Assembly: GCA_003598025.1 (NCBI GenBank)
Contig: QZKH01000002.1
Coordinates: 206,206 to 270,205, forward strand
Length of the DNA: 64,000 bases
Direction of reading: 5' to 3'
Origin: Candidatus Omnitrophota bacterium
GTDB taxonomy: Bacteria; Omnitrophota; Gorgyraeia; Gygaellales; Profunditerraquicolaceae
Made by a program: the position numbers and the translations under genes. The notes beneath the pieces were generated by a model that saw only the letters and a program-made list of their open reading frames with translations, did not search any database and was not told where the DNA came from. This document shows positions 811-60,248 of the stretch, piece after piece (position 1 is the stretch's first letter; the number at the start of each line of letters is the position of its first letter).

Positions 811-899
811 TTTGTGCATGGTTCATAGAGCGTAGTTCATGGATTTGATTAATTTATTCAGAACAGTGCTCTGTGCACGGTGAACCGTGAACTCTATAG
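811..899. repeat. Palindromic heptamer-repeat element (GTTCATR units forward, then reverse-complement units)
   Basis: Seen directly: gcatggttcatagagcgtagttcatgg ... ctctgtgcacggtgaaccgtgaactctatag. The two halves are inverted relative to each other and can form a long hairpin. Confidence 0.7.
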
Positions 900-902: not shown

Positions 903-976
<74 letters not shown>

Positions 977-1166
977 TATTTTTAGAGTCCGTTCTCCCTC
1001 ATAGATAAAACCAACATCCGCCAGAATTATCCTTGATTTTCTTAATATATTTTTCCCTTGAATTATTGATTTGATGAAGTAAAATATAACCTGTAAGTAT
1101 TTGATCCCGGCAGTAGATAAATATTGCAGCAGGTTCATCCGGGATTCCATTCTTATGGAGGTGGGA

Positions 1167-2582: not shown

Positions 2583-2661
2583 CATAGAGATGAGTTCATG
2601 GTTGATGGTTCGTGGACATATGAATATTTCTATGAACCATGAACTATGAACAATGAACTAA
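2583..2661. repeat. Palindromic heptamer-repeat element
   Basis: Forward units gagttcatggttgatggttcgtgg are followed by reverse units ctatgaaccatgaactatgaacaatgaactaat. One more ggttcatgg copy lies at about 2684. Confidence 0.7.
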
Positions 2662-4747: not shown

Positions 4748-7651
4748 ATGTCTTGGAAAATTGAAATAAAAGATAAAGCCGAGGTATTTGATGCAATCGG
4801 AGAGGGTATTAAGCGGGATATCTTTGACCTGGGTATTTACGACGTTGAAGATGTAAAGTTTATACAGATATATATAATAAAGGACAGCATTACCCCTGAT
4901 GATGTAAAGAAAATATGCGAGGAAGTCCTTTTAGACAGCGTTTCACAAGAGTACTCTTTTTCAAAAACCAGCCAAATAAACAATAGTTTCGGCAATAATA
5001 CCCACGTAGTCGAAGTAGCCTATAATCCGGGAGTTATGGACCCGGTTGAAGAGTCCAGCCTTAAAGCAATCAGGGACATAGGAATATCCGCGGTAACTTC
5101 CATAAAAACAGCTAAAAAATATATCATCAAAGGCAGGCTTAATAACCATCAGCTGAAAATAATCTGTGATAAATTATTATACAATAAGCTTATACAGCAT
5201 ATAGTCCCGCGCATGGCAGAAGACAAAATCCCGGCGGAAGTAAAATATCAATTCAGATTAGTTACTGTCGGGTTGCTAAAAGCCGGTGATAAGAAATTAA
5301 TGCAGCTTAGTAAAAGCGGGCAATTGTTTCTTAATATAAATGAGATGCGCGCAATTAAGGATTACTTCAGGAAGCTTAAACGCGATCCTACGGATTGTGA
5401 GCTGGAGACCATAGCCCAGACCTGGTCAGAGCATTGCTGGCATAAAACGTTCAGGGGTAAGATAGATTATAAACAGTCAACTGTGAACGGTGCACTGTGC
5501 ACTAAAAAGATTGATAATCTCCTTAAATCAACGATAATGAAGGTCACCAAAGAGCTTAATAAGCCCTGGTGCGTATCGGTATTCAAGGATAACTCAGGTG
5601 TCATAAAGTTTGATGACGATTACAACATTTGTTTTAAAGTAGAGACCCATAACCATCCTTCAGCACTTGAGCCTTTCGGAGGGGCAAATACCGGTGTGGG
5701 CGGGGTAATCCGTGACCCGTTAGGCACCGGTATGGGCGCAAAACCTATCCTTAATACCGACGTTTTTTGTTTTGCCAGCCCGGATTATCCTTTCAGTAAA
5801 TTACCGGCAGGTACGTTGCATCCGAAAAGAGTGATGAAGGGGGTTGTTTCAGGAGTCAGGGATTATGGTAACAAAATGGGGATCCCCACTGTTAACGGCG
5901 CCATCCTTTTTCATGACAGATTTGTGGGCAATCCATTAGTTTATTGCGGCACCGTCGGAATAATGCCTAAAGACAAAGCATTTAAAAACCCGAGGAAGGG
6001 GGATTTAATCGTTGTAGTCGGCGGCAGGACGGGAAGAGACGGCATACACGGTGCGACATTCTCTTCCGGCGAGCTTACCCATGAGTCTGAAACAATATCA
6101 AGCGGGGCAGTCCAGATCGGTAATCCCATACAGGAAAAAAAGATGGTTGATACTATCCTTAAAGCAAGGGATAGGGGTTTGTATAGCGCGATAACTGATT
6201 GCGGAGCTGGCGGGCTATCCAGTGCGGTCGGGGAAATGGGCCAAGACCTGGGAGCGGTTGTATATTTGGATAAAGTCCCGCTTAAATATAGCGGCCTCTC
6301 TTATATGGAGATATGGATCTCGGAGTCGCAGGAAAGAATGGTCCTTTCGGTGCCGAAAGAGAATATAGCAGAATTGATAGATGTTTTTACTAAGGAGAAT
6401 GTGGAAGCAGCAGTTATCGGAGAGTTCCCGGGTGATGATAAATTAAGGCTTTATTATAACGATAAGAAAGTCTGTGAATTGGAAATGGGTTTTCTGCATG
6501 AAGGGCTGCCTAAAATAGAAAAGAAAGCCGTATTTAAACAGCATATTTACAGGGAACCGAAGCTTCGCTGTCCAAAGGATGTGACTAAAACTTTAAAACA
6601 GCTTCTTTCTCATTATGATATCTGTTCCAAGGAGTGGGTTATAAGGCAATATGACCATGAAGTCCAGGGGGGGTCTGTTGTTAAGCCTCTTATAGGCAAG
6701 TTTAACGACGGCCCGGCTGATGCTTCAGTAAACAGGCCTTTATTAAATTCAAACAGGGGCATTATTTTATCTAACGGGATCAATTTCAGGTTCGGCCTAA
6801 TCGACCCTTACTGGATGGCTGCTTCATGCATTGACGAGGCATTAAGGCAGATAATCGCAGTCGGCGGATCACTTGGGAGGGTCGCATTATTAGATAATTT
6901 TTGCTGGGGCAATCCTGATAAGCCTGATAGGCTTGGAGGTTTAGTGCGCGCTGCTTTAGGATGTTATGATATTGCAAAAGGTTTTGGCCTGCCTTTTATA
7001 TCGGGTAAAGACAGCCTGTATAACGAATTCACGGTCAATAAAAGATCCATCTCTATCCCGGGTACTTTACTGATTTCTGCCATTGCAGTCATGCAGGATG
7101 TATCAAAAGCCGTTTCGATGTACCTTAAGAAGCCGGGCAACCTCGTGTATATCGTAGGAGAAACTTTTAATGAGTTGGGAGGGTCACATTACTATGATAT
7201 TCTTGGTTATGTAGGCAATACCGTACCGAAGGTAGATGTTATTAAGGCAAAGAAAACATTTGTCGCTTTAAGTAAAGCTGCCTCTAGCGGCCTGGTAGAA
7301 TCTATCCATGATTGTTCTGACGGAGGCTTAGCCGTGAGTTGCGCCGAGATGTCTTTTGCTGGGAACCTTGGCATGAGAGTTTTCTTATCCGAGGCGCCGT
7401 TTAATAACAGCAAGGCAAGGCTTAGTAATGATTGTGTGCTTTTTTCCGAATCTAATTCCAGATTTATAGTAGAAGTGAGCCGCGAAAACCAAAAAGCTTT
7501 TGAAAAAACGCTTAAAGGCATTGTTTACGGCTTAATCGGATGCGTAACTAAAGAGGGTATATTGGAAGTCCATGGTTTAGACGGTAAAACATGTATCAGG
7601 GCATCTGTAGATGAGCTTAAGACGGCCTGGAAGGAGCCTTTGCAATGGTGA
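4748..7651 (+). CDS. purL: Phosphoribosylformylglycinamidine synthase, PurS-PurL fusion
   Basis: An N-terminal PurS-like segment of about 80 aa is followed by the PurL motif HNHPSALEPFGGANTGVGGVIRD and duplicated AIRS domains, for 967 aa in total. A separate purQ lies downstream. Confidence 0.9.
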   Translation: MSWKIEIKDKAEVFDAIGEGIKRDIFDLGIYDVEDVKFIQIYIIKDSITPDDVKKICEEVLLDSVSQEYSFSKTSQINNSFGNNTHVVEVAYNPGVMDPVEESSLKAIRDIGISAVTSIKTAKKYIIKGRLNNHQLKIICDKLLYNKLIQHIVPRMAEDKIPAEVKYQFRLVTVGLLKAGDKKLMQLSKSGQLFLNINEMRAIKDYFRKLKRDPTDCELETIAQTWSEHCWHKTFRGKIDYKQSTVNGALCTKKIDNLLKSTIMKVTKELNKPWCVSVFKDNSGVIKFDDDYNICFKVETHNHPSALEPFGGANTGVGGVIRDPLGTGMGAKPILNTDVFCFASPDYPFSKLPAGTLHPKRVMKGVVSGVRDYGNKMGIPTVNGAILFHDRFVGNPLVYCGTVGIMPKDKAFKNPRKGDLIVVVGGRTGRDGIHGATFSSGELTHESETISSGAVQIGNPIQEKKMVDTILKARDRGLYSAITDCGAGGLSSAVGEMGQDLGAVVYLDKVPLKYSGLSYMEIWISESQERMVLSVPKENIAELIDVFTKENVEAAVIGEFPGDDKLRLYYNDKKVCELEMGFLHEGLPKIEKKAVFKQHIYREPKLRCPKDVTKTLKQLLSHYDICSKEWVIRQYDHEVQGGSVVKPLIGKFNDGPADASVNRPLLNSNRGIILSNGINFRFGLIDPYWMAASCIDEALRQIIAVGGSLGRVALLDNFCWGNPDKPDRLGGLVRAALGCYDIAKGFGLPFISGKDSLYNEFTVNKRSISIPGTLLISAIAVMQDVSKAVSMYLKKPGNLVYIVGETFNELGGSHYYDILGYVGNTVPKVDVIKAKKTFVALSKAASSGLVESIHDCSDGGLAVSCAEMSFAGNLGMRVFLSEAPFNNSKARLSNDCVLFSESNSRFIVEVSRENQKAFEKTLKGIVYGLIGCVTKEGILEVHGLDGKTCIRASVDELKTAWKEPLQW

Positions 7652-8325
7652 AAAATACTAAGCGCAAGAAAGACGAGCTATTGGATGATTCAGATGATTT
7701 TGTAAGGCAGGATACTTGGCGGGTGTTCCGTATAATGTCGGAATTCGTCGAAGGTTTTGAAGTATTATCCAAACTGGGAGAAGCTGTTTCGATATTCGGC
7801 TCAAGCAGGACAAAACCGGATAATAAACACTACAAATTGGCCGAGGAAGTCGCCTATCTTTTGGCAAAAGAAGGTTATGCTGTTATTACCGGCAGCGGCC
7901 CCGGGCTTATGGAAGCTGCCAACAAAGGGGCAAAGAGGGCATGCGGGTGTTCTGTGGGCTTAAATATTCAGATACCCAGCGAGCAAAAAGCAAATAAATA
8001 TGTAGATACGCTTCTTGATTTTCATTATTTTTTTGTCAGAAAAGTGATGTTTGTTAAATATGCCAAAGCTTTTGTAATACTCCCCGGAGGTTACGGGACG
8101 CTGGATGAGTTCACCGAGGCCATTAATCTTATTCAGACCAAGAGGATATCCAAATTCCCCGTAGTCTTATTCGGCTCGGAATATTGGAAGGGCCTTCTGG
8201 ATTGGCTTAAAAGCACTGTTTTAGCAAACGGTAACATAAGCAAAGAGGACCTGGATATTTTTGTTGTTGTGGATAAGCCCAAAGAAGTAGTCGATGCCAT
8301 AAGGAAGTTTTATGCAAAAGCCTAA
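7645..8325 (+). CDS. LOG family protein (cytokinin riboside 5'-monophosphate phosphoribohydrolase / lysine-decarboxylase-like)
   Basis: Motifs FGSSRT, TGSGPGLMEAANKGA and PGGYGTLDE are present. It overlaps the end of purL by 7 nt and the start of purQ by 14 nt. Confidence 0.8.
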   Translation: MVKNTKRKKDELLDDSDDFVRQDTWRVFRIMSEFVEGFEVLSKLGEAVSIFGSSRTKPDNKHYKLAEEVAYLLAKEGYAVITGSGPGLMEAANKGAKRACGCSVGLNIQIPSEQKANKYVDTLLDFHYFFVRKVMFVKYAKAFVILPGGYGTLDEFTEAINLIQTKRISKFPVVLFGSEYWKGLLDWLKSTVLANGNISKEDLDIFVVVDKPKEVVDAIRKFYAKA

Positions 8326-9136
8326 AGTCTGCGTATTAAGAAGCGCAGGTACCAACTGTGATTTAGAAACCGCTGCTGCTTTTGGAAAAGCAGGCGCTGT
8401 ATGTGAATTAGTGCATATAAACGAGCTTATAGCAGGCAGCAGGAGCCTGCATAGTTTTCAGATATTGGCTATACCCGGCGGATTTACTTACGGTGATGAC
8501 CTGGGCGCAGGCAGGGTTTTTGCCAATGAGCTGAGGTTTAAACTGCGCAAGGATATAGAGAATTTTATCTCAGAAGGAAAGGTCATAATAGGCATATGCA
8601 ATGGTTTCCAGATATTAGTAAAAAGCGGGTTATTGGCAGGCGCTAAAGACTTTAAACAGCAGGCAAGCCTGATAATTAACGATAGCGCAAAATTTGAGGA
8701 TAGGTGGGTTTATTTAAAGCCGTCAGCTATCAGCCGTCAGCTATCAGCTAAATGCGTGTGGACGCGTAATTTACCTGACAAGATTTATCTGCCGGTTGCC
8801 CACGGGGAAGGGAAATTCATAACCAGAGACAAAAATGTGCTTGATAACCTTTTTAAGAGCGGGCAGGTTGTTCTGCAATATTGCGATGAAGATACGCAGT
8901 TGGCAGACTATCCTTATAATCCGAACGGTTCAATAGAGAATATCGCCGGTATATGCGATGAAACGGGAAGGATCTTCGGGCTTATGCCGCATCCGGAGCG
9001 CCATATTGATCTATTGCAGCATCCAAGGTCATGGACTGAAAATGCAGCAGGAGTAAAAGAAGGCGATGGTTTGCAGATATTCAGAAACGGTGTTGAATAT
9101 ATAATAAATGAGCTTAGAAAGGGGAAATTTGAATGA
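8312..9136 (+). CDS. purQ: Phosphoribosylformylglycinamidine synthase, glutaminase subunit
   Basis: The type-1 GATase nucleophile elbow GICNGFQ and the C-terminal motif PVAHGEGKF are present. An in-frame tandem-repeat insertion is noted separately. Confidence 0.85.
   Translation: MQKPKVCVLRSAGTNCDLETAAAFGKAGAVCELVHINELIAGSRSLHSFQILAIPGGFTYGDDLGAGRVFANELRFKLRKDIENFISEGKVIIGICNGFQILVKSGLLAGAKDFKQQASLIINDSAKFEDRWVYLKPSAISRQLSAKCVWTRNLPDKIYLPVAHGEGKFITRDKNVLDNLFKSGQVVLQYCDEDTQLADYPYNPNGSIENIAGICDETGRIFGLMPHPERHIDLLQHPRSWTENAAGVKEGDGLQIFRNGVEYIINELRKGKFE
8720..8747 (+). repeat. Exact 14-bp tandem duplication (ccgtcagctatcag x2; four cagcYNN heptamers) inside purQ coding sequence
   Basis: Seen directly. 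It encodes PSAISRQLSA between conserved PurQ blocks, and the frame is preserved downstream. Confidence 0.7.
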
Positions 9137-11994: not shown

Positions 11995-13013
11995 GACGAA
12001 CAAAGAGCATAAACTATAAGTCTGCTGGAGTTGATATACACAAAGCAGAGAGTTTTAAAGAAAAGATAAAACCTTTGGCGAGGAAATCTTTTACCGGCGA
12101 AGTGATTAAGGATATCGGCGGGTTCGGTGCATTTTTCAGGTTCCCCCAAAAGGCCTACAAGAACCCGGTGCTGGTTTCTTCCTCTGACGGCGTAGGCACT
12201 AAGCTTAAGATAGCTGCGCTTGTCAATAAGCATGATACCATCGGTATAGATGCTGTGGCCATGAACGTAAATGACATACTTTGCACCGGGGCAAGGCCGT
12301 TGTTTTTTCTTGATTATTTAGCTTATAGCGACCTCAAGGAAGAGACCCTGCTGGATATAATCAAAGGGATAAATAACGGTTGCATTGAATCGGGGTGTTC
12401 TTTAATCGGAGGAGAAACTGCCCAGATGCCTGGCATGTATGATAAAGGTGAATATGATGTGGCCGGATTTTGCGTAGGGGCGATCGAAGAGGCCAATATA
12501 ATCGATGGTTCAAGAATAGAAGAAGGGGATTTGGCTTTAGGCCTGGAATCAAGCGGACTGCATTCTAACGGTTTTTCATTGGTCAGAAAGGTTTTCTCCG
12601 AGGCAGAGCTTAAAAGGATGAGTAAAGAGCTGCTTGAACCCACGCGTATTTATGTAAAACCGGTGATTGCCTTGTTGGATAAATTCGGCTATGACTGTAA
12701 GGTAATCAGGGGCATATCCCATATTACAGGCGGTGCTTTTTATAACAAGATATCACGTATCCTACCGAGAAAATTTGATTTGAGGATTGACAAAAATTCC
12801 TGGGTTGTACCGAAAATCTTCAGGCTCGTTCAAAACAAGGGCAATGTCAGCGACAGAGACATGTACTCGACATTAAATATGGGTATTGGCATGGTATTAT
12901 TTATTCCTAAAGCTGCTTTAAGCCAGGTTAAGGGCGAGTTGGAAAAATTCAGCTTGAAATCCTGGGTTATCGGGAAAGTCACCCCGGGAGCCAGGCAAGT
13001 GCATATAAATTAA
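11991..13013 (+). CDS. purM: Phosphoribosylformylglycinamidine cyclo-ligase (AIR synthase)
   Basis: The DGVGTKL motif is present within an AIRS/AIRS_C architecture, and the length is typical. Confidence 0.9.
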   Translation: MRRTKSINYKSAGVDIHKAESFKEKIKPLARKSFTGEVIKDIGGFGAFFRFPQKAYKNPVLVSSSDGVGTKLKIAALVNKHDTIGIDAVAMNVNDILCTGARPLFFLDYLAYSDLKEETLLDIIKGINNGCIESGCSLIGGETAQMPGMYDKGEYDVAGFCVGAIEEANIIDGSRIEEGDLALGLESSGLHSNGFSLVRKVFSEAELKRMSKELLEPTRIYVKPVIALLDKFGYDCKVIRGISHITGGAFYNKISRILPRKFDLRIDKNSWVVPKIFRLVQNKGNVSDRDMYSTLNMGIGMVLFIPKAALSQVKGELEKFSLKSWVIGKVTPGARQVHIN

Positions 13014-14066: not shown

Positions 14067-15356
14067 ATGCGAATATTAGTTATAGGTTCGGGAGGCAGAG
14101 AGCACGCGCTTGTCTGGAAAATAGCGCAGTCTAAATCGGTAGATAAGATTTTCTGTGCTCCCGGTAATGCGGGGATCGCGCAACAGGCAGAGTGTATCGA
14201 TATTAAACCGGATGACATAACCGGGTTGTTGGATTTTGCCAGGAGGCAGAATGTTGACCTTACAGTAGTCGGGCCGGAAGTGCCTTTGTCGTTAGGTATA
14301 GCTGATGAGTTCAAAAAATATAAGTTAAATATTTTCGGGCCGAATAAAGCTGCTGCACAATTGGAATCAAGCAAGGTATTTTCCAAACAGATGATGGCCA
14401 GGTATCAGGTCCCGACTGCAGAGTTCAGGGTTTTTCAGGACTTAGATGAAGCAAAAAGGTTTATTTCTGTCAGGGGAGCGCCCTGCGTAATCAAGGCAGA
14501 CGGCCTTGCGCAAGGCAAGGGAGTATTTGTCGCAAAGACGGTGGAAGAAGCAAACCAGGCAGCTTCTTTAATACTCAGGGATAAAATTTTCGGTAATTCC
14601 GGTAAGAAGATTATAGTCGAAGATTGCCTGGAAGGTCCGGAAGCATCCATATTGGTATTTACTGATTCAGAATATGTTATACCCCTTGCTTCAAGCCAGG
14701 ACCATAAAAGGATATTTGATAATGACCAGGGGCCTAATACAGGGGGTATGGGCGCGTATTCTCCTGCGCCAGTGGTTGATAAGGCAATGTTCGATCTTAT
14801 AATGCAGAAAGTAATATACAAGATGGTTAAAGGCTTATTAAATGAAGGTATCGAATACCAGGGTGTTTTATATGCCGGGATAATGATTACTAAAGATGGT
14901 CCAAAGACCCTGGAGTTCAATGTCCGTTTCGGGGACCCGGAGACACAGGCGATCCTGCCAAGGTTAAAAACCGACATTGTCGAGGTTATGTTGGCTTGCG
15001 CAAAAAAACAGCTTTCAAAAGTCAAGACATTGGATTGGGATAACCGTAGTTGTGTATGCGTTGTGTGTTCCTCAAAAGGTTACCCGGGGGCTTATGATAA
15101 AGGCAAAGAGATAAAAGGCATAGAAGAAGCTGAGAAAATAGAAGGGGTGAAGGTTTTTCATGCGGGAACAAAGTTTTTGCCGTCCACAGTCCACAGTCCA
15201 CAGTCCACTTGCGTTACTGATGGAGGAAGGGTGCTGGGTGTCAGCGGCTTAGGAACCACGATTAAAGAAGCGATAAATAAAACTTATCAGGGAGTCTCAA
15301 AAATTCACTTTGATGGTATGCATTACCGTAAAGATATTGCCTCAAAGGCGCTATAA
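14067..15356 (+). CDS. purD: Phosphoribosylamine-glycine ligase
   Basis: The N-terminus MRILVIGSGGREHAL matches GARS, and the ATP-grasp core is recognisable. An in-frame heptamer-repeat insertion near the C-terminus is noted separately. Confidence 0.9.
   Translation: MRILVIGSGGREHALVWKIAQSKSVDKIFCAPGNAGIAQQAECIDIKPDDITGLLDFARRQNVDLTVVGPEVPLSLGIADEFKKYKLNIFGPNKAAAQLESSKVFSKQMMARYQVPTAEFRVFQDLDEAKRFISVRGAPCVIKADGLAQGKGVFVAKTVEEANQAASLILRDKIFGNSGKKIIVEDCLEGPEASILVFTDSEYVIPLASSQDHKRIFDNDQGPNTGGMGAYSPAPVVDKAMFDLIMQKVIYKMVKGLLNEGIEYQGVLYAGIMITKDGPKTLEFNVRFGDPETQAILPRLKTDIVEVMLACAKKQLSKVKTLDWDNRSCVCVVCSSKGYPGAYDKGKEIKGIEEAEKIEGVKVFHAGTKFLPSTVHSPQSTCVTDGGRVLGVSGLGTTIKEAINKTYQGVSKIHFDGMHYRKDIASKAL
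15182..15209 (+). repeat. Four tandem heptamers (gtccaca x3 + gtccact) in-frame inside purD
   Basis: Seen directly. It encodes STVHSPQST within the usually compact PurD C-terminal loop. The unit is one mismatch from the intergenic GTTCACA heptamer family. Confidence 0.7.
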
Positions 15357-18618: not shown

Positions 18619-19101
18619 ATGAAGAAAACAAAAAGACTTATCCATTACAGGCCGACATGGGACGAATATTTTATGGAAGTCGCAAGCCTTGTCTCCAAGA
18701 GGGCGACTTGTTTAAGGAGGCGGGTTGGGGCAGTCCTGGTAAAAGGCAAGAGGATACTGGCTACCGGTTATAACGGCGCTCCTTCAGGCCTGAGTCATTG
18801 TCTGGATGTGGGTTGCTTGAGAGAAAAACTCGGCATACCCTCGGGCCAGCGCCATGAACTATGCCGCGGCCTGCATGCCGAACAGAACGTATTGGTCCAG
18901 GCAGCACTATATGGGATTAGCACTCAAAACAGCACCCTTTATGTGACCAATCAGCCTTGTATTATCTGCGCTAAAATGCTGATTAATGCCGGCATCAAAG
19001 AAATAGTTATCAGTGATGGTTATCCTGATGAGATGGCACAGGACTTCTTAAAGAAGGCCAAGGTGAAGGTAAGGAAGGTAAAGCCGGTTCATAGTTCATA
19101 G
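18619..19101 (+). CDS. dCMP/cytidine deaminase family (ComEB-like)
   Basis: The zinc motifs HAEQN and PCIICAKML are present. The last five codons and the stop are encoded by the heptamer repeat. Confidence 0.8.
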
Positions 19102-19152
19102 TTGATGGGAAAAACTGTGTCTATGAACCATGAACCATAAACTATGAACTAA
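19086..19152. repeat. Palindromic heptamer-repeat element
   Basis: Seen directly: ggttcatagttcatagttgatgg ... ctatgaaccatgaaccataaactatgaactaat. It overlaps the 3' end of the deaminase gene and abuts the nrdR start. Confidence 0.7.
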
Positions 19153-25475: not shown

Positions 25476-25567
25476 ATTAGTTCATGGTTCATAGTTCATA
25501 GATTAGTTCACAGTGCACAGTTCGCAGAGCACAGATTAGTTCATGGTTCACGGTTCATGGAGTACAG
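25476..25567. repeat. Heptamer-repeat array, forward orientation (about 13 units; attagttcaYRG sub-repeats)
   Basis: Seen directly between the helicase start and the downstream minus-strand ORF. Confidence 0.7.
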
Positions 25568-26380
25568 TTATTGAATTTGTTTTATAAATTTAATAAATCT
25601 TCTTGTATAGAGCGTGTAAAAGAATGAAGTGTCATTAACATATTGACCCTCGGAGATACGGCTTGAAGACTTATTCCAATATAGAACATTTGAAAACAAG
25701 CCTATATTTCTAAGTTCCCTTACCGCTGAATCAGTTAATTCAGGGGAGTATTGGAATTTCTGATGTGTTTCTGTTACGACATCTCTTATTATAATCTGCG
25801 GTAATGAAATTGTACTCTCTAATTGTTTATCATACTTTTCATAAATAGCATATAGTACATTTAATGCCACCTTGCTTAAATGCCTAATTAAATCAATAAA
25901 TCGTAATTTTTCATCTTCTGAAACATTCCTATCGGAAGCATTAAATAGGGCATTAACAAATATTTCTTGCTTGTCCATATATTCTGCGTTTAATGCTGTC
26001 TCCATTATTTTAATACAAAACAACTGTCCTTCTTGTGTATTAAAATATTCCTGCAGTTTATTTTTGAATTCGTCATTAAGGTTATTAATTCTATTTTCAA
26101 GATGCCCCAACATTTGAATTCGAGTTTGTTCTTTTATGGAATCTTGACATTTTTCTAATCCTTCTACCAAATCCCCCCATAGCGGGACCCTTTTTGCGAA
26201 GCTTTTTACAGCTCCCCAAAGTCCTGATTTTACGGCTAAGAGCCGGTTTGTTCTAATGTTTTCTTTATTCATCAGTTCGTTTACAAAGTTATTTGTAGAG
26301 ACTATGGCGTGAAGGAACAATAAATTTGGACCCCCCACCATTCTTTCTTTAGTTACTTTTAACCATGAACTATGAACCAT
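25568..26380 (-). CDS. Hypothetical protein, AT-rich, no recognised domain
   Basis: A 270-aa ORF on the minus strand lies in a visibly AT-rich segment bracketed by heptamer arrays of opposite orientation. The start codon lies inside the right-hand array. Confidence 0.5.
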   Translation of the reverse strand: MVHSSWLKVTKERMVGGPNLLFLHAIVSTNNFVNELMNKENIRTNRLLAVKSGLWGAVKSFAKRVPLWGDLVEGLEKCQDSIKEQTRIQMLGHLENRINNLNDEFKNKLQEYFNTQEGQLFCIKIMETALNAEYMDKQEIFVNALFNASDRNVSEDEKLRFIDLIRHLSKVALNVLYAIYEKYDKQLESTISLPQIIIRDVVTETHQKFQYSPELTDSAVRELRNIGLFSNVLYWNKSSSRISEGQYVNDTSFFYTLYTRRFIKFIKQIQ

Positions 26381-26393
26381 CAACTATGAACTA
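26361..26393. repeat. Heptamer-repeat array, reverse orientation (aaccatgaactatgaaccatcaactatgaactaa)
   Basis: Seen directly. It is the inverted partner of the 25476..25567 array. Confidence 0.7.
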
Positions 26394-26585: not shown

Positions 26586-26614
26586 ATTGATTTATCTATT
26601 ATTAAATAGTAGAA
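26586..26614 (+). promoter_or_regulatory. Sigma70-like promoter (TTGATT-N17-TAGAAT) for the downstream gene
   Basis: The spacing and hexamers are seen directly. An AAGGGG RBS follows, about 4 nt before the ATG at 26623. Confidence 0.35.
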
Positions 26615-26622
26615 TAAGGGGC

Positions 26623-27174
26623 ATGAGTTATGAGGTGGCGCTGAATAAGGCATGGCTAGATATTGCTAACCTTAATGTTACCAAGAATTTATCGGTAAAA
26701 TTTCTTGGTGATGAGTATTCGGTTGATACAGAAAACAGGGTAATCCTGTCTTTGGCTTGTAACGTAAAAACGAAAGACTATAGGACAATACTTATCCTGC
26801 ATTATTTGAAGAAAAAAATATCAGGTTTGCCTTTATTAAGCGGTAACTGGAAGAATTTCAGAGAGATAGCCTTGATCGAAGGCTATCACGATACATTCAG
26901 GAACAGGGTGCTTAAGCCGTTAATAAGGAAATACGGCAGGAACCCGGAAGGAATTTCTGATTCGATTAAGCGCTTCAAAGCCAGAATGGTTAATAAGGCA
27001 GATGTGGCTTTTGAGGTTGAGGTTTTTGAGGGTGTTCCTGTCTTGATAGAGTTATGGCGCCAGGACGAAGAGTTTGAGGCAGAGGCAAATCTCCTTTTTG
27101 ACGCGAGTATTACCGATATTTTCTGCATAGAAGACATTGTGGTATTGGCTGAGACAGTAGCAGCAGCACTTTAG
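26623..27174 (+). CDS. Hypothetical protein (possibly DUF3786-like)
   Basis: A 183-aa ORF begins MSYEVALNKAW. The family assignment is from memory only. Confidence 0.4.
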   Translation: MSYEVALNKAWLDIANLNVTKNLSVKFLGDEYSVDTENRVILSLACNVKTKDYRTILILHYLKKKISGLPLLSGNWKNFREIALIEGYHDTFRNRVLKPLIRKYGRNPEGISDSIKRFKARMVNKADVAFEVEVFEGVPVLIELWRQDEEFEAEANLLFDASITDIFCIEDIVVLAETVAAAL

Positions 27175-30068: not shown

Positions 30069-30110
30069 GGCTAAGGTTATGCTTGCGTAATAACCCTAGC
30101 CGGTTTTATA
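30069..30110 (+). terminator. Hairpin (12-bp stem with one mismatch, 9-nt loop) followed by GGTTTTATAT, a likely intrinsic terminator after spoVG
   Basis: The 5' arm ggctaaggttat and the 3' arm ataaccctagcc are seen directly. Confidence 0.4.
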
Positions 30111-30118
30111 TAAAAATT

Positions 30119-30628
30119 ATGAAAAACCTATATTTAGTCGGTTTTATGGGCACGGGTAAATCAAGCGTGGGCAAGCTGATCGCTAAAAAGAGAAAATGCA
30201 GGTTTGCAGACCTGGATGAATTAATAGAATTAAAAGAAAAGAAAAGTATCCCTGATATCTTCGCTAAATACGGCGAGGCGCATTTTAGAAGGTTAGAGAA
30301 AAAGGCGCTTAAGGAAATATCGCGTGAAAGTAATTTCGTGGTTGCCTGCGGAGGCGGGATAGTATTAGATAAAGAGAATATCCAGATAATGAACGAATCC
30401 GGGTTGGTCGTCTGCCTTAAAGCAAGCCCTGAAGTCATCCTGAAGCGTACAGCCGCCTCAGTTAACCGGCCATTGCTGAATGTAGAAGAACGTAAGGAGA
30501 AGATCAATATGCTTCTGAAGATACGCGCCCCTTTTTACGCGCAGATAGCCAGGCAGGTAGATACATCAACCCTGTCTATCGAAGAGGTGGCTGATAAGGT
30601 GGCCGGATGGATGAAAGAGAAGCCTTAA
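30119..30628 (+). CDS. aroK: Shikimate kinase
   Basis: The ATG at 30119 gives MKNLYLVGFMGTGKS with a Walker A motif. The listed ORF uses an upstream TTG inside the hairpin. Confidence 0.85.
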   Translation: MKNLYLVGFMGTGKSSVGKLIAKKRKCRFADLDELIELKEKKSIPDIFAKYGEAHFRRLEKKALKEISRESNFVVACGGGIVLDKENIQIMNESGLVVCLKASPEVILKRTAASVNRPLLNVEERKEKINMLLKIRAPFYAQIARQVDTSTLSIEEVADKVAGWMKEKP

Positions 30629-31704: not shown

Positions 31705-33693
31705 ATGAGTAAGAAAGACCTGATAATAGTTGAATCCCCCACTAAGGCCAAGACAATAGGCAAGATCCTTGGCGATAAATTTACAGTTGTATCCTCGATG
31801 GGGCATGTAATTGACCTCCCGCAGAAGAAGCTTGGGGTCGATATTGAGAATGGTTTCCTTCCGGAATACACGGTTTTAAGCGGAAGAAACAAGGTTTTAA
31901 CCAGCCTGAAGAAGGACGCTAAGGAAAAATCCAATATTTATGTTGCGACTGACCCTGACCGCGAAGGGGAGGCTATCGGTTGGCACCTTAAGGAAAGGGT
32001 ATTTAAGAACAAGAAGGTTTTCCGCCTGGTGTTCCATGAGATAACTCCGTCTGCGATAAAAGAGGCATTTAGTAAATCGCGGGATTTTGACATGAATATG
32101 ATCGAAGCCCAGGCAAGCAGGAGGATATTGGACCGCCTGGTCGGTTATTTCCTGAGCCCGTTATTGTGGAAAAAAATAGTCAGGGGCTTAAGCGCAGGCC
32201 GGGTGCAATCTGTGGCTTTAAGGATATTGATCGAGCGTGAACGCCAGATTAATAATTTCGTTCCCAAAGAATATTGGGAGATAGAGGCGGAGCTAGAAAA
32301 AGCCGACGGTCAACGGTCCACAGACCACGGTATATTTACGGCTAAACTGGATAAAATCGATGACAGGAAGGCGGAGATAGCAAATAAGAAGCAGGCAGAC
32401 GATATTGTCGCCTACCTCTCCGGAAGGGATTTTATCGTCAGCGATATAAAGAAGACCGAGAAGAAAAAGAACCCCCTTGCCCCTTTTATCACCAGCACAC
32501 TTCAGCAGGAGGCCTTCAATAAATTCAGGTTCAATGCTACGCGCACCATGATGCTGGCCCAGCAGCTTTATGAAGGTATAGATATAGGCAGGGATTCACC
32601 CGTTGGCCTTATCACATACATGCGTACTGATTCTCCGCGTGTTGCTCCCGAAGCGATCAGGGAAGTCAGGGGAATGATCCAAAAGAAGTTCGGCGCCGAA
32701 TACCTTCCCAAAGAACCTAATGCCTACAAAGTAAAGAAACTCGCCCAGGAGGCGCATGAAGCAATAAGGCCGACTATGATAGATAGCGCGCCGGATGCAT
32801 TCAAGGATTTCCTGACCCCCGACCAATACAAGCTATACGAGCTTATCTATAACCGTTTTGTATCCAGCCAGATGACTCCGGCAAAATACCTGACGACTAC
32901 GGCAGCCATTGAATGCGAAAAGTATTTGTTCAGTGCTTCAGGAAGCGTATTGACATTTGACGGTTTCCTTAAATTATATGCCAATAACGAAGAGGAAGAA
33001 GATAACAGCGAAAGCCAGAAGAATAAAATACCGGAATTAAAAAATGGCGAGGTGCTAAAACCGCAGAAATTAATCCCTTCCCAGCATTTTACTAAGCCCC
33101 CGGCAAGGTTTTCTGACAGTTCCTTGGTAAAGGCGCTTGAAGAAGACGGGATAGGCCGCCCCTCTACTTATGCCCCGATTATCCAGACCCTGATACTCAG
33201 GGATTATGTGCGCAGGATTAAAGGCTATTTCCACCCTACGGAACTCGGGACAAAAGTAGTTGAACTCTTGATCGAGTATTTTCCCAAGGTCATGGACCTT
33301 AAATTTACCGCGCTCATGGAAGAAGAGCTGGATGAGATTGAAGAGGGAAAATTAAAGAGAGCTGATGTCTTAAATCAATTTTATTCCAGCTTTAAGGCAA
33401 ATTTAGATTTTGCACAAAAGAACATAAAGAAAGAAGTCATAGAGACGGACCAGGTATGCGAGTCTTGCGGGAAACCCATGATAGTAAAATGGGGCAGACG
33501 GGGCAAATTTTTAAGCTGTTCCGATTTTCCCAAGTGCAAGAGTTCAAAATCGATAACCAGCGGAGTCAAATGCCCTGAAGCTGGATGCGGCGGCGAGCTT
33601 ATTGAGCGCCGTTCCAGGCGCGGATTTTTTTACGGCTGTTCCAATTTTCCTAAATGCAGGTTTACCTCGAGGACTTTACCCGAGGAAAAATAA
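31705..33693 (+). CDS. topA: DNA topoisomerase I (type IA) with C-terminal zinc ribbons
   Basis: The Toprim N-terminus LIIVESPTKAKTI and the active-site region are present, with three CxxC-type ribbons at the C-terminus. Confidence 0.9.
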   Translation: MSKKDLIIVESPTKAKTIGKILGDKFTVVSSMGHVIDLPQKKLGVDIENGFLPEYTVLSGRNKVLTSLKKDAKEKSNIYVATDPDREGEAIGWHLKERVFKNKKVFRLVFHEITPSAIKEAFSKSRDFDMNMIEAQASRRILDRLVGYFLSPLLWKKIVRGLSAGRVQSVALRILIERERQINNFVPKEYWEIEAELEKADGQRSTDHGIFTAKLDKIDDRKAEIANKKQADDIVAYLSGRDFIVSDIKKTEKKKNPLAPFITSTLQQEAFNKFRFNATRTMMLAQQLYEGIDIGRDSPVGLITYMRTDSPRVAPEAIREVRGMIQKKFGAEYLPKEPNAYKVKKLAQEAHEAIRPTMIDSAPDAFKDFLTPDQYKLYELIYNRFVSSQMTPAKYLTTTAAIECEKYLFSASGSVLTFDGFLKLYANNEEEEDNSESQKNKIPELKNGEVLKPQKLIPSQHFTKPPARFSDSSLVKALEEDGIGRPSTYAPIIQTLILRDYVRRIKGYFHPTELGTKVVELLIEYFPKVMDLKFTALMEEELDEIEEGKLKRADVLNQFYSSFKANLDFAQKNIKKEVIETDQVCESCGKPMIVKWGRRGKFLSCSDFPKCKSSKSITSGVKCPEAGCGGELIERRSRRGFFYGCSNFPKCRFTSRTLPEEK

Positions 33694-47180: not shown

Positions 47181-47270
47181 TTAGTTGACAGTTCACAGAG
47201 CACAGATTAGTTCACAGTTCACTGTTCACGGATCACAGAACATGGCTGTGAACTAATCTATGAACTAAAA
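47181..47270. repeat. Palindromic heptamer-repeat element (GTTCACR units)
   Basis: Forward units gttcacagagcacagattagttcacagttcactgttcacgg are followed by reverse units ctgtgaactaatctatgaactaa. Confidence 0.7.
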
Positions 47271-57819: not shown

Positions 57820-57892
57820 TTAGTTCATAGTTCATAGTTAATGGTTCATAGTTCATAGATTAGTTCACGGTTCACAGAGCATAGTTCATAGA
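57819..57892. repeat. Heptamer-repeat array, forward orientation (about 10 GTTCATA units)
   Basis: Seen directly after the GT9 stop. Confidence 0.7.
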
Positions 57893-57953: not shown

Positions 57954-58271
57954 TTGGAGGAAATTATGGATAATAAAAAGATATATAATAATGACTTGAT
58001 AGTGTTTTCGATTTTGGGGAGCTTATGCCTTTTGCCGTCTTTATTAATGCTATACTATTTTTTTGTTTCAGAATCCAGCCAACCGCCGTATCTATTAAGA
58101 ATGCTTTTTGAGATTATGCTTTCATCAAAAACCTATGCCCCTATGTGGTCAGAGGTTGATAAAGATCTTTTACTATACCGAGCTATTATTTGGATGGCTT
58201 TAGGTATCGGATTGATAGGTTTTGGAATTTATAAATATAAAAAGGAATCGGTTATTAAGACTAGTTTATAG
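57954..58271 (+). CDS. Small AT-rich hypothetical membrane protein (2 TM)
   Basis: A 105-aa ORF lies between two forward heptamer arrays. Its stop codon is supplied by the next repeat. Confidence 0.4.
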   Translation: MEEIMDNKKIYNNDLIVFSILGSLCLLPSLLMLYYFFVSESSQPPYLLRMLFEIMLSSKTYAPMWSEVDKDLLLYRAIIWMALGIGLIGFGIYKYKKESVIKTSL

Positions 58272-58383
58272 TTGATGGTTCATAGATCATAGAAATAGAT
58301 AAAGTAGGTAGTCACAAAGACACACGACACAAGGACACAAAAATTAGTTCACGGTTCACAGTACACGGAGCACAGTTAATGCA
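58263..58383. repeat. Left terminal inverted repeat of cassette (heptamer units + about 75-nt core aaagtaggtagtcacaaagacacacgacacaaggacacaaaaa)
   Basis: By-eye alignment with the reverse complement of 60092..60248 shows the about 75-nt core differing at only 3 positions. The flanks are more diverged. Confidence 0.75.
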
Positions 58384-58423
58384 CTAGATTCGTTTGAGAA
58401 CTGTTCAGTTGGAGGAATTTAAC

Positions 58424-60091: not shown

Positions 60092-60248
60092 CTGTGACCT
60101 TGTGTCTTTGTGACCAACTACTCTAGTTATTACTGTGCTCCGTGAACCGTGATCTGTGAACTCAAGCTTTTTGTGTCCTTGTGTCGTGTGACTTTGTGAC
60201 TACCTACTTTAGCTATTTCTATGAACTATGAACCATCAACCATGAACC
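60092..60248. repeat. Right terminal inverted repeat of cassette (reverse-complement heptamer units + core + an extra partial copy of the gtgtc/gtgac motif)
   Basis: See the left TIR. Its outer end is ctatgaactatgaaccatcaaccatgaacc. Confidence 0.75.

What the first reader, a model, noticed from the sequence alone, without database searches (positions are those of the whole stretch)
15182..15209. Heptamer-repeat family expanded in-frame inside purD (and a 14-bp tandem duplication inside purQ at 8720-8747)
purD contains gtccaca gtccaca gtccaca gtccact, encoding STVHSPQST in a C-terminal region that is normally a short loop before the conserved GGRVL block. The unit is one mismatch from the intergenic GTTCACA heptamers. 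purQ contains an exact 14-bp tandem duplication (ccgtcagctatcag twice, four cagcYNN heptamers) encoding PSAISRQLSA, yet both ORFs remain intact through their conserved C-terminal motifs. Simple-sequence repeats of non-triplet unit length inside essential enzymes are unusual. They indicate an active slippage or insertion mechanism for this repeat family that is tolerated in surface loops, and they are potential phase-variation or contingency sites.
Basis: seen in the sequence. Interest (0 to 1): 0.55.

Follow-up and report, generated by a model that had tools for sequence, protein, structure and literature searches.

The report
In-frame heptamer repeats in enzyme loops
Two purine-synthesis genes of an uncultured Omnitrophota bacterium each carry four tandem copies of a 7-base unit (three extra copies, 21 bases, 7 extra amino acids) in a loop, and relatives carry such repeats at the same loops with different units, so this is a lineage-wide repeat process filtered by the reading frame and not a genetic on/off switch.

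Summary
purD has GTCCACA×3 + GTCCACT at 15182-15209. purQ has an exact 14-bp duplication at 8720-8747, better read as four heptamers (TCAGCTA TCAGCCG TCAGCTA TCAGCTA, 8723-8750). Both add 5-7 residues relative to solved orthologs; for PurD the site is a β-hairpin loop in the model.

The window is from a Candidatus Omnitrophota MAG with about 9-fold more period-7 arrays than other phyla. Two more decayed coding arrays exist, in purL (5474-5503) and topA (32302-32331).

These sites are not private expansions. Most Omnitrophota PurD and PurQ orthologs, and five PurM orthologs examined, carry a ~4.3-copy heptamer (sometimes octamer) array at the same loop, with lineage-specific units. One PurD pair differs by exactly one versus four units (21 nt).

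Best explanation: local 7-nt slippage-type amplification. Inside genes selection keeps only net three-unit changes, stop-free orientations and permissive loops. Collapse and re-expansion keeps copies identical while the unit drifts.

Phase variation is not supported: copy number is fixed near four, the hosts are housekeeping enzymes, and two 99.3%-identical strains show no array-length differences.

Unexplained: the same units (GTCCACA, GTCAGCT) recur in different genes and clades.

The parts
14067..15356 (+). purD (phosphoribosylamine-glycine ligase), 429 aa, host gene
   Evidence: PDB PurD hits, E about 1e-133; 100% identical to an NCBI/JGI Candidatus Omnitrophota MAG protein
15182..15209 (+). 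Coding heptamer array GTCCACA x3 + GTCCACT; encodes STVHSPQST within PurD residues 372-381; about 7 residues longer than solved orthologs
   Evidence: AF2 model: the insert lies between strands E368-371 and E381-384, with pLDDT about 65 there
8312..9136 (+). purQ (FGAM synthase glutaminase subunit), 274 aa, host gene
8718..8750 (+). Coding heptamer array (AGCCG) TCAGCTA TCAGCCG TCAGCTA TCAGCTA with exact 14-nt periodicity over 8718-8748; encodes PSAISRQLSA (residues 137-146)
5474..5503 (-). Decayed heptamer array inside purL (4748..7651+). The minus strand reads TGCACAG TGCACCG TTCACAG TTGACTG, the same GTKCACA family, here antisense to the gene; peptide QSTVNGALCT
32302..32331 (+). Decayed GTCCACA array inside topA (31705..33693+): GCCGACG GTCAACG GTCCACA GACCACG GT. 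It is positionally homologous to a near-perfect GTCCACA array in relative L167 and 7 residues longer than solved TopA 6ozw
12678..12704 (+). purM loop (DKFGYDCKV). In relatives this is the site of a 4.4-copy heptamer array; in this genome periodicity is lost and the loop is one codon shorter
2594..2660 (.). Intergenic inverted pair of GTTCAYR arrays (GTTCATG GTTGATG GTTCGTG ... TATGAAC CATGAAC TATGAAC AATGAAC); strong hairpin
   Evidence: MFE -32.4 kcal/mol, z -8.8
19087..19151 (.). Inverted pair of GTTCATA arrays straddling the stop codon of ORF 18619..19101; hairpin
   Evidence: MFE -22.4 kcal/mol, z -4.2
25480..25560 (+). Intergenic composite array: modules of 3-4 GTTCAYR/GTGCACA/GAGCACA units separated by 'gatta'
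26361..26393 (-). GTTCATR array at the 5' end of, or just upstream of, minus-strand ORF 25568..26383
47183..47260 (.). Intergenic composite GTTCACR array followed by two inverted units
57821..57891 (+). Intergenic composite GTTCAYR array, about 10 units
58262..58376 (+). Two intergenic GTTCAYR-family arrays upstream of ORF 58394..59104
60140..60248 (-). Two intergenic GTTCAYR-family arrays in reverse orientation, upstream of ORF 60297..61226
866..892 (-). GTTCACG GTTCACC GTGCACA GAGCAC array just upstream of tRNA-Met (902-977)

Best explanation
The purD and purQ repeats are coding-region members of a heptanucleotide tandem-repeat system that is unusually productive in a sub-lineage of Candidatus Omnitrophota.

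Proposed mechanism:
(1) A local 7-nt unit, usually followed by 2-4 nt that repeat its start (a '1.3-copy' seed), is amplified head-to-tail by slipped-strand or similar local template-reuse synthesis. This step is inferred.
(2) In intergenic DNA any copy number and any unit survive, including stop-containing units such as GTTCATA. This is shown.
(3) Inside genes selection passes only three things: net changes of three units (21 nt, 7 codons; or 24 nt for octamers); the orientation that is stop-free in all three frames; and positions where 7 extra hydrophilic residues are harmless, i.e. loops. The pattern is shown; selection as its cause is inferred. The result is the stereotyped arrays of about 4.3 copies (25-32 nt).
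(4) At a few permissive loops (the PurD C-domain hairpin, one loop each in PurQ, PurM and TopA) the array site is old and shared across the clade. The site alternates between collapsed (about 1.3 copies) and expanded (about 4.3 copies) states. Each re-expansion makes the copies identical again, while mutations fixed in the surviving unit change the unit. Position, register and length therefore stay constant while the unit differs between lineages. The states are shown; the cycle is inferred. Where homogenisation stops, the array decays, as in this genome's purM, purL and topA sites.

The inserts have no demonstrated function. They are tolerated by-products and not switches.
For: Lineage trait: period-7 arrays run at 14.9 per 100 kb in Omnitrophota loci (18.8 in the window) against 1.66 per 100 kb in 1.14 Mb from other phyla, while period 6 is equal at 3.3 and 3.4. 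In the window, period 7 gives 12 arrays against 0 in shuffles.

In-frame filter: perfect GTCCACA arrays inside long sense ORFs of metagenome contigs have 3.3-4.9 copies, with a few near 7. Those without a spanning ORF reach 6-19 copies. The octamer array in L087 purD also has 4 copies. Ortholog loop lengths are bimodal, 7-8 against 11-16 residues in PurD and 5-8 against 11-14 in PurQ.

Stop filter: GTTCATA and every reverse orientation of GTTCAYR contain a stop in one frame. GTCCACA, GTTCACA and TCAGCTA in the forward orientation are stop-free.

Loops: PurD has a 6-7 residue gap in three PDB orthologs and the insert lies in an AF2 hairpin loop. PurQ shows a 5-residue gap, PurM 5 and TopA 7.

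Shared sites with different units, from DNA: purD carries GTCCACA (window, L082, L084), GTCAGCT (L081, L210), CCCAATA (L085), CAGGCGA (L086), GAACTCAA (L087) and AAGCTCC (L088). purM carries TT[ACGCACG]x4ACG, [ACGCAAT/ACTCAAT]x4ACG, [ACGAGGG]x4ACG and [TCAGGCT]x4TCG in identical register. Residue self-matches at offset 7 are 18% in 105 distinct PurD loops and 33% in 116 distinct PurQ loops, against 4-10% at control offsets.

Collapsed and expanded states: L209 has CT-GTCAGCT-AAA and L210 has the same flanks plus exactly 21 nt of three more units; their PurD proteins are 81% identical.

Local origin: there are no conserved flanks, and perfect lengths of 25-32 nt (mode 30-32) fit four local units plus microhomology. 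Other arrays in the same contigs use unrelated units. GTCCACAx3 is no commoner than a composition-matched control in viral contigs, 12 against 11.

Decay versus homogeneity: the topA array is decayed in the window and near-perfect in syntenic L167.

Not an artefact: the same arrays appear in independent JGI, ENA, Logan and NCBI assemblies.
Against: Simple one-unit slippage cannot pass through viable intermediates in essential genes, because +7 and +14 nt shift the frame. A multi-unit step or length-neutral conversion must be assumed, and neither was observed.

The same units recur more than random local seeds predict. GTCCACA occurs in purD (window, L082, L084, P0103), purQ (P0123, P0129, P0138, P0150), topA (window, L167) and a gene-end composite array in L167. 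Both GTCCACA and GTCAGCT occur in each of two PurD clades.

The window's purD array sits two codons 3' of the arrays in L082 and L084, and replaces the conserved KY. It may therefore not be strictly homologous to them.

Perfect identity of about 27 nt between genomes at 70% protein identity needs either frequent re-homogenisation or some constraint.

No copy-number polymorphism was seen between close strains, so current activity is not demonstrated.

The NJ tree is too poorly resolved to count events.
Confidence: 0.62

Rival explanations
1. Templated or copy-paste origin. Arrays are not grown from local sequence. They are written or converted from other arrays of the same genome (ectopic conversion or template switching during repair), or by a dedicated heptamer-array-generating or array-mobilising activity. 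This gives each clade a preferred unit vocabulary that appears in many unrelated sites.
For: Units recur across genes and clades: GTCCACA in purD, purQ, topA and composite gene-end arrays; TTNDQRP in PurD and PurQ; RNTQY.I in PurM and PurQ. In the window, three of four coding arrays and all the intergenic arrays seen belong to one family, GTNCAYR. L085 has CAATACG/T in purM and CAATACC in purD; L088 has CAGGCTT and CAAGCTC. The closest relative L081 has in purD the unit that the window has in purQ, with similar edges (AAGC.GTCAGCTATCAGC...TCAGCTAAAT). The window's purD array is shifted by two codons relative to L082 and L084. A GC-rich palindrome is found specifically nested inside arrays, which shows that something targets arrays.
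Against: No conserved flanks or ends were found. Additional arrays in GTCCACA-bearing contigs use essentially random units. GTCCACA is not enriched over a matched control in viral contigs. Array lengths fit local four-unit amplification. The purM units share their first three bases across genomes, as expected from descent in place. No candidate enzyme was identified.
Confidence: 0.2
2. Contingency locus. The non-triplet repeats switch purD and purQ on and off by slippage-induced frameshifts.
For: Non-triplet SSRs in ORFs are the classical substrate of phase variation in Haemophilus and Neisseria (established knowledge). Heptanucleotide SSRs are known there (listing).
Against: Tracts are short, at four units. 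The genes are core purine-biosynthesis enzymes and not surface or restriction genes. The tracts lie mid-gene or towards the 3' end. The same copy number is seen in every genome examined. There is no length change between 99.3%-identical strains. All 240 listed homologs are full-length in-frame proteins.
Confidence: 0.04
3. Functional cis-element. The heptamer arrays, coding ones included, are binding sites for a single-strand nucleic-acid-binding regulator (for example a CSP, S1 or Csr-like protein, as proposed for TAACTGA repeats) and are maintained by selection at the DNA or RNA level.
For: Arrays stay perfect at 70% protein identity. In this window and in relatives the coding arrays are concentrated in pur genes: purL, purQ, purD and purM. 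The intergenic family is structured into modules. A syntenic intergenic array downstream of the dCMP deaminase gene is conserved unit by unit between L085 and L088. MacGregor 2015 (PMC4679880) proposed this for TAACTGA.
Against: Units differ between genes of one genome and between genomes at one site, so no single recognition sequence exists. Many orthologs lack the array altogether. Arrays decay without loss of the gene, as in the window's purM, purL and topA. The coding arrays have no RNA structure (z +0.3 to +0.5). Hosts elsewhere include LeuRS, MoeA, Fmt, FabD, TopA and PyrD, so there is no pathway logic.
Confidence: 0.07
4. Ancient peptide insertion kept by protein-level selection. The DNA periodicity is a relic or coincidence.
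For: The insert position and length are conserved across the clade. In a homogeneous array every base is read at all three codon positions, so every mutation is non-synonymous somewhere. That alone slows divergence.
Against: Peptide sequences differ completely between lineages while DNA periodicity is retained or renewed. Perfect nucleotide repeats cannot be relics at this divergence. About a quarter of PurD orthologs (31 of 120 listed) and a sixth of PurQ orthologs (22 of 120 listed) do without the insert.
Confidence: 0.04
5. Assembly or sequencing artefact.
For: The source is a MAG, and repeats can be mis-assembled.
Against: The arrays are 28 nt, shorter than any read. They are in frame. The identical protein is recorded on 3 contigs from NCBI and JGI. 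Equivalent arrays occur in independent assemblies from four sources.
Confidence: 0.01

Closest known systems
Long simple sequence repeats with 5-11 nt units in prokaryotes, heptanucleotides being the commonest class (Mrazek et al. 2007, as summarised in PMC4679880); cyanobacterial STRR heptamers (my own knowledge: Mazel et al. 1990)
   Same: Head-to-tail 7-nt units; strong lineage-specific over-representation; mostly intergenic; slippage proposed as the origin, with 7 nt suggested to reflect a polymerase footprint.
   Different: Those surveys reported that non-triplet units avoid coding regions. Here arrays sit inside core enzymes, at the same loops across a clade, with copy number fixed near four and units that differ by lineage. 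Omnitrophota have not been described as a repeat-rich group: a search of the held library for 'Omnitrophota' with 'tandem repeat' returned one irrelevant paper.
TAACTGA direct repeats of marine Beggiatoaceae, some Cyanobacteria and Bacteroidetes (MacGregor 2015, PMC4679880)
   Same: A dispersed heptamer family, mostly intergenic, with 2-6 copies. The forward orientation has stops in all frames, so only the reverse orientation (TCAGTTA, encoding LSVISYQ) occurs inside ORFs. The purQ unit TCAGCTA (SAISYQL) is one base away from TCAGTTA.
   Different: In BOGUAY the in-ORF copies lie mostly in hypothetical proteins or at protein termini, and a single unit dominates the genome. Here the arrays lie in internal loops of essential enzymes, several units coexist, and orthologous sites show unit turnover. 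No association with start codons was seen for the coding arrays.
GGGAATC / GGGGAYT heptamer repeats of Xanthomonas and Nostoc (PMC4692102)
   Same: [quoted passage not shown]
   Different: There the four-unit preference was attributed to G-quadruplex formation. The units here are not G-rich, and the coding arrays show no structure. Here the four-unit preference follows from the reading frame (1 + 3 units).
Phase-variable contingency loci (Haemophilus, Neisseria, Moraxella)
   Same: A non-triplet SSR located inside an ORF.
   Different: Those tracts are long and hypervariable, lie in surface or modification genes, and vary in copy number between sibling strains. None of that is seen here.
Small dispersed repeats (SDR) of Nostoc (Elhai et al. 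2008, Genome Res 18:1484; reference taken from PMC3116915; the paper is not held, so the content is from memory)
   Same: Elements of 21-27 nt with inverted-repeat ends that, as I recall, insert into heptamer arrays and sometimes into genes. This resembles the 21-nt GC-rich palindrome nested in arrays of L088, L167 and L168.
   Different: This comparison applies to the nested palindrome in relatives and not to the window's repeats. It was not tested against the SDR sequences.

Membership tests
Heptanucleotide simple sequence repeats (LSSR / STRR-like) | Uninterrupted head-to-tail copies of a 7-nt unit | tested here: met
   TRF: 15182-15208 period 7, 3.9 copies, 100%; 8723-8750 period 7, 4.0 copies
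Heptanucleotide simple sequence repeats (LSSR / STRR-like) | Longer or more frequent than expected by chance in that genome | tested here: met
   12 arrays against 0 in shuffles; 6 in CDS against 1.1 in codon shuffles; 9-fold above other phyla
Heptanucleotide simple sequence repeats (LSSR / STRR-like) | Predominantly non-coding location | tested here: met
   About 8 of 12 window arrays are intergenic or at gene edges, although only about 5.6% of the window is non-coding
Heptanucleotide simple sequence repeats (LSSR / STRR-like) | Copy number changes by slippage between related genomes | tested here: inconclusive
   An exact 1-unit versus 4-unit difference between L209 and L210 and bimodal loop lengths show changes over evolutionary time. 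No change was seen between 99.3%-identical strains
TAACTGA repeat family (MacGregor 2015) | Unit TAACTGA / TCAGTTA | tested here: not met
   The purQ unit TCAGCTA/TCAGCCG is 1-3 mismatches away; the purD unit GTCCACA is unrelated
TAACTGA repeat family (MacGregor 2015) | Located within a few nucleotides upstream of start codons | tested here: not met
   The two arrays of the finding are internal to ORFs. Some intergenic GTTCAYR arrays lie upstream of genes, but in both orientations
Phase-variable contingency locus | Copy number differs by non-multiples of three units among close strains or reads, switching the frame | tested here: not met
   No array-length difference between L082 and L083. All 240 listed homologs are intact proteins. 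Read-level data were not available
Phase-variable contingency locus | Host gene encodes a surface, restriction-modification or other niche-variable function | tested here: not met
   Hosts are PurD, PurQ, PurL and TopA in the window; PurM, LeuRS, MoeA, Fmt, FabD, PurH and PyrD elsewhere
Miniature mobile element (REP/REPIN, SDR, MITE-like) | Defined conserved ends or inverted repeats, or a target-site duplication, shared by copies at different loci | tested here: not met
   Flanks of 22 in-ORF GTCCACA arrays show no conserved positions, and array ends vary
Miniature mobile element (REP/REPIN, SDR, MITE-like) | The same sequence dispersed at many unrelated loci of one genome | tested here: inconclusive
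   The GTNCAYR family is dispersed in the window, but other genomes mix unrelated units

The most novel reading that the evidence does not exclude
A sub-lineage of Omnitrophota has a process that writes or copies short (about 4-unit) heptamer arrays, and that goes beyond passive replication slippage. Candidates are processive multi-unit reiterative synthesis at repair sites, or conversion from other arrays. This would explain how essential genes jump directly between 1 and 4 units, why arrays stay perfect at 70% protein identity, why the same units (GTCCACA, GTCAGCT) reappear in different genes and clades, and why a palindromic mini-element specifically lodges inside arrays. Coding loops would then act as a natural record of that activity.
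Probability: 0.18. Interest if true: 0.85.

Novelty: new variant of a known kind. Interest (0 to 1): 0.55.

Why it matters
Non-triplet microsatellites are textbook examples of sequences excluded from essential genes, or used as frameshift switches. Here they are a regular, long-lived component of conserved enzymes in a poorly known phylum, in a form dictated by simple arithmetic: 3 x 7 nt = 7 codons.

The orthologous sites in PurD, PurQ, PurM and TopA have fixed position and length but lineage-specific units. They offer a rare natural system for measuring birth, homogenisation, collapse and decay of short tandem repeats under a hard reading-frame constraint, and for asking whether multi-unit steps or conversion occur in bacteria.

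Practically, these inserts create 7-residue indels in marker proteins. They can mislead alignments, phylogenies and structure predictions, and they could serve as fine-scale lineage markers for Omnitrophota MAGs.

If a dedicated mechanism exists, it would be a new kind of genome-editing activity.

Tried and rejected
Only L001, L002, L003 and L015 were Omnitrophota. The other loci were later reused as a control set.
2. The look-up of the window's own PurD (P0001) in the contig index found nothing on record, so I could not compare independent assemblies of this exact genome.
3. The AF2 model of PurQ was poor, with pLDDT below 50 over residues 123-167. I do not use it. The PurQ loop assignment rests on alignment gaps only.
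4. I tested the idea of one genome-specific unit or a trans-acting recognition sequence. It is rejected as a general rule, because the other arrays in GTCCACA-bearing contigs are unrelated and the purM and purD units differ within L082 and L086. It is partly true for the window and for L085, L088 and L167.
5. I tested whether GTCCACA is a universally favoured heptamer. Viral-contig counts are 12 against 11 and 67 for matched controls, so this is not supported. Only one metagenome scan was allowed, so no control unit could be run there.
6. I looked for conserved flanks of a mobile element and found none.
7. The NJ tree of 120 PurD proteins is too unresolved, with nearly all pairs near 70% identity, to count gains and losses. 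I use it only to show that the states are interleaved.
8. The Rfam scan of the window found only a tRNA. The coding arrays have no RNA structure.
9. Elhai et al. 2008 could not be read. The comparison with SDRs is from memory.
10. I considered a protein-level repeat function for peptides such as STVHSPQ. I rejected it because the peptides differ completely between lineages while the DNA periodicity persists.
Full report
**1. The observation**

The sequence is as described. In purD (ORF 14067..15356, +) the bases 15182-15209 read GTCCACA GTCCACA GTCCACA GTCCACT and encode PSTVHSPQST. In purQ (8312..9136, +) the 14-mer ccgtcagctatcag occurs twice in tandem at 8720-8747 and encodes PSAISRQLSA.

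Tandem Repeats Finder reports 15182-15208 as period 7, 3.9 copies, 100% matches. It reports the purQ site both as period 14 (8718-8748, 2.2 copies, 100%) and as period 7 (8723-8750, 4.0 copies). The purQ site is therefore best read as four heptamers, TCAGCTA TCAGCCG TCAGCTA TCAGCTA, preceded by a partial AGCCG. Both sites have the same anatomy: about four copies of a 7-nt unit.

Neither site is a chance event. The 14-mer GTCCACAGTCCACA with up to 2 mismatches occurs 7 times against 0.13 expected. Period-7 arrays number 12 in the window against none in shuffles and none for periods 5, 8, 10 or 11. Within coding sequence there are 6 against 1.1 in codon-shuffled genes.

**2. Where the inserts sit**

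The best PDB matches confirm the gene identities: PurD at E about 1e-133, and for PurQ the PurL glutaminase domain at about 1e-34. Three solved PurD orthologs lack 6-7 residues exactly at the repeat, just before GGRVL. In the best PDB match, Salmonella PurL lacks 5 residues at the PurQ repeat.

An AlphaFold2 model of the window's PurD (mean pLDDT 83.6) puts residues 372-380 in the connection between two strands (E368-371 and E381-384), with a local dip in confidence to about 65. This is a hairpin loop. The PurQ model was too poor around the site to use.

**3. Organism and genomic background**

The PurD and PurQ proteins are 100% identical to proteins of a Candidatus Omnitrophota MAG recorded by NCBI and JGI.

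The window is rich in heptamer arrays. Outside genes they form a family with consensus GTTCAYR. They are often built as modules of 3-4 units ending in GAGCACA-GATTA, occur in both orientations, and twice form inverted pairs that fold into strong hairpins (2594-2660, z -8.8; 19087-19151, z -4.2).

Two further coding arrays were found, both decayed.
- purL 5474-5503 belongs to the same family on the opposite strand.
- topA 32302-32331 reads GCCGACG GTCAACG GTCCACA GACCACG GT.

The commonest intergenic unit, GTTCATA, and all reverse orientations of the family contain a stop codon in one of the three frames. GTCCACA, GTTCACA and TCAGCTA read forwards are stop-free. This explains which variants can live inside genes.

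Period-7 arrays occur at 14.9 per 100 kb in the Omnitrophota loci I assembled (18.8 in the window alone), against 1.66 per 100 kb in 1.14 Mb of purD loci from other phyla. Period-6 arrays are equally common in both sets. Four Omnitrophota loci that were not chosen for their arrays (L001, L002, L003, L015) have none. The trait therefore belongs to a sub-lineage and not to the whole phylum.

**4. The comparative result that changes the interpretation**

I aligned the 120 best PurD homologs, nearly all unnamed metagenomic proteins; those with names are Omnitrophota. About three quarters carry an insert at this same loop. The inserts have different sequences, but each shows an internal 7-residue repeat: STVHSPQSTV, LSAVSSQLSA, PNTQYPIPNTQY, QATGDRRQAT, SSLVARRSSLV.

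The same holds for PurQ at its loop, between FEDRWVYLK and KCVWT. Across all distinct loops, residues match themselves at offset 7 in 18% (PurD) and 33% (PurQ) of positions, against 4-10% at control offsets. PurD also shows 14% at offset 8. Loop lengths are bimodal, with short loops and loops about 6-7 residues longer.

Fetching the DNA showed that these inserts are nucleotide arrays.

| Locus | PurD identity to window | Array at the PurD loop |
|---|---|---|
| L082 / L083 | 71% | GTCCACA x4.3, perfect |
| L084 | 70% | GTCCACA GTCCACA GTCCACG GTCCACG |
| L081 (closest relative) | 86% | GTCAGCT ATCAGCA ATCAGCC GTCAGCT (the unit of this window's purQ) |
| L085 | 70% | CCCAATA x5.1 |
| L086 | 70% | CAGGCGA x4.3 |
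| L087 | 69% | octamer GAACTCAA x4 |
| L088 | 68% | AAGCTCC array split by a 21-nt palindrome |
| L001, L002 | 63-64% | no array, short loop |

purM shows the phenomenon most cleanly. In L082, L085, L086 and L088 the same loop holds four units plus three bases, in exactly the same register between TT and ATA-AAA. The arrays are [ACGCACG]x4-ACG, [ACGCAAT/ACTCAAT]x4-ACG, [ACGAGGG]x4-ACG and [TCAGGCT]x4-TCG. L087 has an equivalent 4.6-copy array (CTATACG/CTAAACG) at the same loop, in a register shifted by one codon. The loop is about 5 residues longer than in solved PurM structures. In the window itself this purM site (12678-12704) has lost its periodicity.

In topA, the window's decayed array is positionally homologous to a near-perfect GTCCACA array in the syntenic relative L167. 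Both proteins are 7 residues longer than solved TopA at that point.

**5. How general it is**

- In long sense-strand ORFs the perfect array has 3.3-4.9 copies, occasionally about 7.
- Where no ORF spans it, the array reaches 6-19 copies.

Pfam confirmed the hosts as LeuRS (editing domain), MoeA, Fmt, FabD, a MiaB-like radical-SAM enzyme, PurH, TopA and PyrD.

The other heptamer arrays in those contigs use unrelated units. In viral contigs GTCCACA x3 is no more common than a composition-matched control: 12 against 11 stretches, with another control at 67 and TCAGCTA x3 at 45. The flanks of 22 in-ORF arrays share nothing. Perfect lengths are 25-32 nt with a mode of 30-32. That fits four copies of a local unit plus 2-4 nt of microhomology. 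It does not fit a foreign 21-nt block dropped into unrelated sequence.

**6. Mechanism**

The simplest account that fits all of this is a lineage-wide propensity for 7-nt (occasionally 8-nt) tandem amplification of local sequence, filtered by selection. In non-coding DNA anything survives. In genes, only net three-unit changes, stop-free orientations and loop positions survive. This gives the stereotyped arrays of about 4.3 copies.

Direct evidence for the three-unit step comes from the pair L209 and L210, whose PurD proteins are 81% identical.
- L209 has AAA-AAA-CT-GTCAGCT-AAA-TAT (KKLSAKY).
- L210 has the same flanks with exactly 21 more bases: GTCAGCT GTCAGCT CTCAGCT TTCAGCT.

If a site alternates between about 1.3 and about 4.3 copies, every re-expansion restores perfect copies. 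Any mutation fixed in the surviving unit is then propagated to all copies. This explains the constant position, register and length with lineage-specific units, and the retention of the first three bases (ACG) across the purM units. Where the cycle stops, arrays decay, as in the window's purM, purL and topA sites.

In a homogeneous array every base is read in all three codon positions, so there are no silent sites. This should also slow divergence.

What is shown: the states, the filter patterns, and the local character of the arrays. What is inferred: the slippage chemistry and the cycle.

**7. What this account does not explain well**

- A one-unit slip is a frameshift, so essential genes need a multi-unit step or a length-neutral conversion. 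Neither was observed.
- The same units recur too often. GTCCACA occurs in purD, purQ and topA, and in a composite array that forms the C-terminal extension of a shikimate-kinase-like ORF in L167.
- L082, L209 and L210 are 79-81% identical to one another yet carry GTCCACA x4, GTCAGCT x1 and GTCAGCT x4. The window/L081 clade has the same two units.
- The window's purD array lies two codons 3' of those in L082 and L084 and replaces the conserved Lys-Tyr.
- Some genomes use nearly the same unit at two loci: L085 has CAATACG/T and CAATACC; L088 has CAGGCTT and CAAGCTC.

These points keep a templated or copy-paste rival alive, at about 0.2.

**8. Phase variation**

I found nothing in its favour. The tracts are short and lie in housekeeping genes. 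The copy number is the same in every genome. L082 and L083, from two samples, differ by 157 substitutions (0.7%) and a few small indels over 21.3 kb, with no length change in any of five arrays. Read-level data could not be examined.

**9. Comparison with known systems**

The closest known kinds are:
- the heptanucleotide long SSRs surveyed by Mrazek and colleagues, and cyanobacterial STRRs;
- the TAACTGA repeats of Beggiatoaceae, whose reverse orientation TCAGTTA gives LSVISYQ inside a few ORFs (PMC4679880). The purQ unit here is one base away and gives SAISYQL;
- the GGGAATC repeats of Xanthomonas and Nostoc, which also prefer four units (PMC4692102).

The repeats here meet the defining features of heptanucleotide SSRs. 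They are not members of the TAACTGA family by sequence or position, not contingency loci, and not mobile elements with defined ends.

The differences from what has been described, as far as the held literature shows, are four: the phylum; the location in internal loops of core enzymes; the conservation of site, register and copy number across orthologs together with unit turnover; and the frame-arithmetic explanation of the four-copy preference.

**10. Verdict**

The phase-variation reading is not supported. The finding is the visible tip of a clade-wide phenomenon that is a new variant of a known kind. Interest is moderate to fairly high, at 0.55. It would be much higher if the unit recurrences turn out to reflect a dedicated array-copying mechanism.

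Noticed in passing
L088 5670-5700 (purD); L168 985-1015 (pyrD); L167 595-640: A GC-rich palindrome, CCTGCCTGCCGG-N-CAGGCAGG (about 21 nt, in frame, peptide PCLPDRQA or LPAGQAG), lies nested inside three different heptamer arrays (AAGCTCC, CTATCGA, GTTTGCC). Similar peptides (PCLPAGR, SLPAGRQG, VPAYRQAG) interrupt the arrays of PurQ P0166, P0128 and P0162 and of PurD P0023. It looks like a mini-element that targets heptamer arrays. It was not found in the window.
   Followed up: partly
L087 11100-11135: The PurD loop array in this relative has an 8-nt unit (GAACTCAA x4, peptide ELKNSRTQELK). Offset-8 periodicity is also visible in other PurD loops (RLNDSTTQRP, SPGHQVTRSP). Octamers therefore follow the same 1 + 3 rule.
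   Followed up: partly
L167 6437-6600 (minus strand): A shikimate-kinase-like ORF ends in a roughly 50-residue C-terminal extension made entirely of degenerate NNCACAG heptamers. The window ortholog (30083..30628) lacks it. Here an array has extended a protein tail.
   Followed up: partly
L085 7089-7142 and L088 9661-9719: An intergenic array downstream of the dCMP deaminase gene (AAAGCTT AAAGCTA AAAGCGT AAAGCGA ...) is conserved unit by unit, variants included, between two genomes. That is the opposite of homogenisation and hints at a conserved element.
   Followed up: no
window 26398-26557: An 86-nt unit is repeated 1.9 times (83% identical), directly next to a heptamer array (26361-26393), between minus-strand ORF 25568..26383 and plus-strand ORF 26587..27174. 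There is no Rfam match.
   Followed up: no
window 4748-7651: purL here is a 967-aa long form with a roughly 230-residue N-terminal extension and several internal inserts, compared with the 737-740-aa PurL of relatives L082 and L087 (about 35% identical). It is a different PurL type in an otherwise syntenic pur cluster.
   Followed up: partly
window 58001-60000: GC content drops to 0.33 from about 0.43 elsewhere, in a region dense with heptamer arrays and CACAAAGA-type 8-mers (58313-58341; mirrored at 60100-60215).
   Followed up: no
window 866-977: A GTTCACG-family array lies immediately upstream of the only tRNA gene in the window (tRNA-Met CAT, 902-977).
   Followed up: no
window 8720-8750 versus L081 1371-1401: The purQ array of the window and the purD array of its closest relative share unit and edge sequence: AAGC[CT]GTCAGCTATCAGC ... 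TCAGCTAAAT. This is either coincidence from Lys codons flanking both loops or a trace of array transfer between the two loops.
   Followed up: partly
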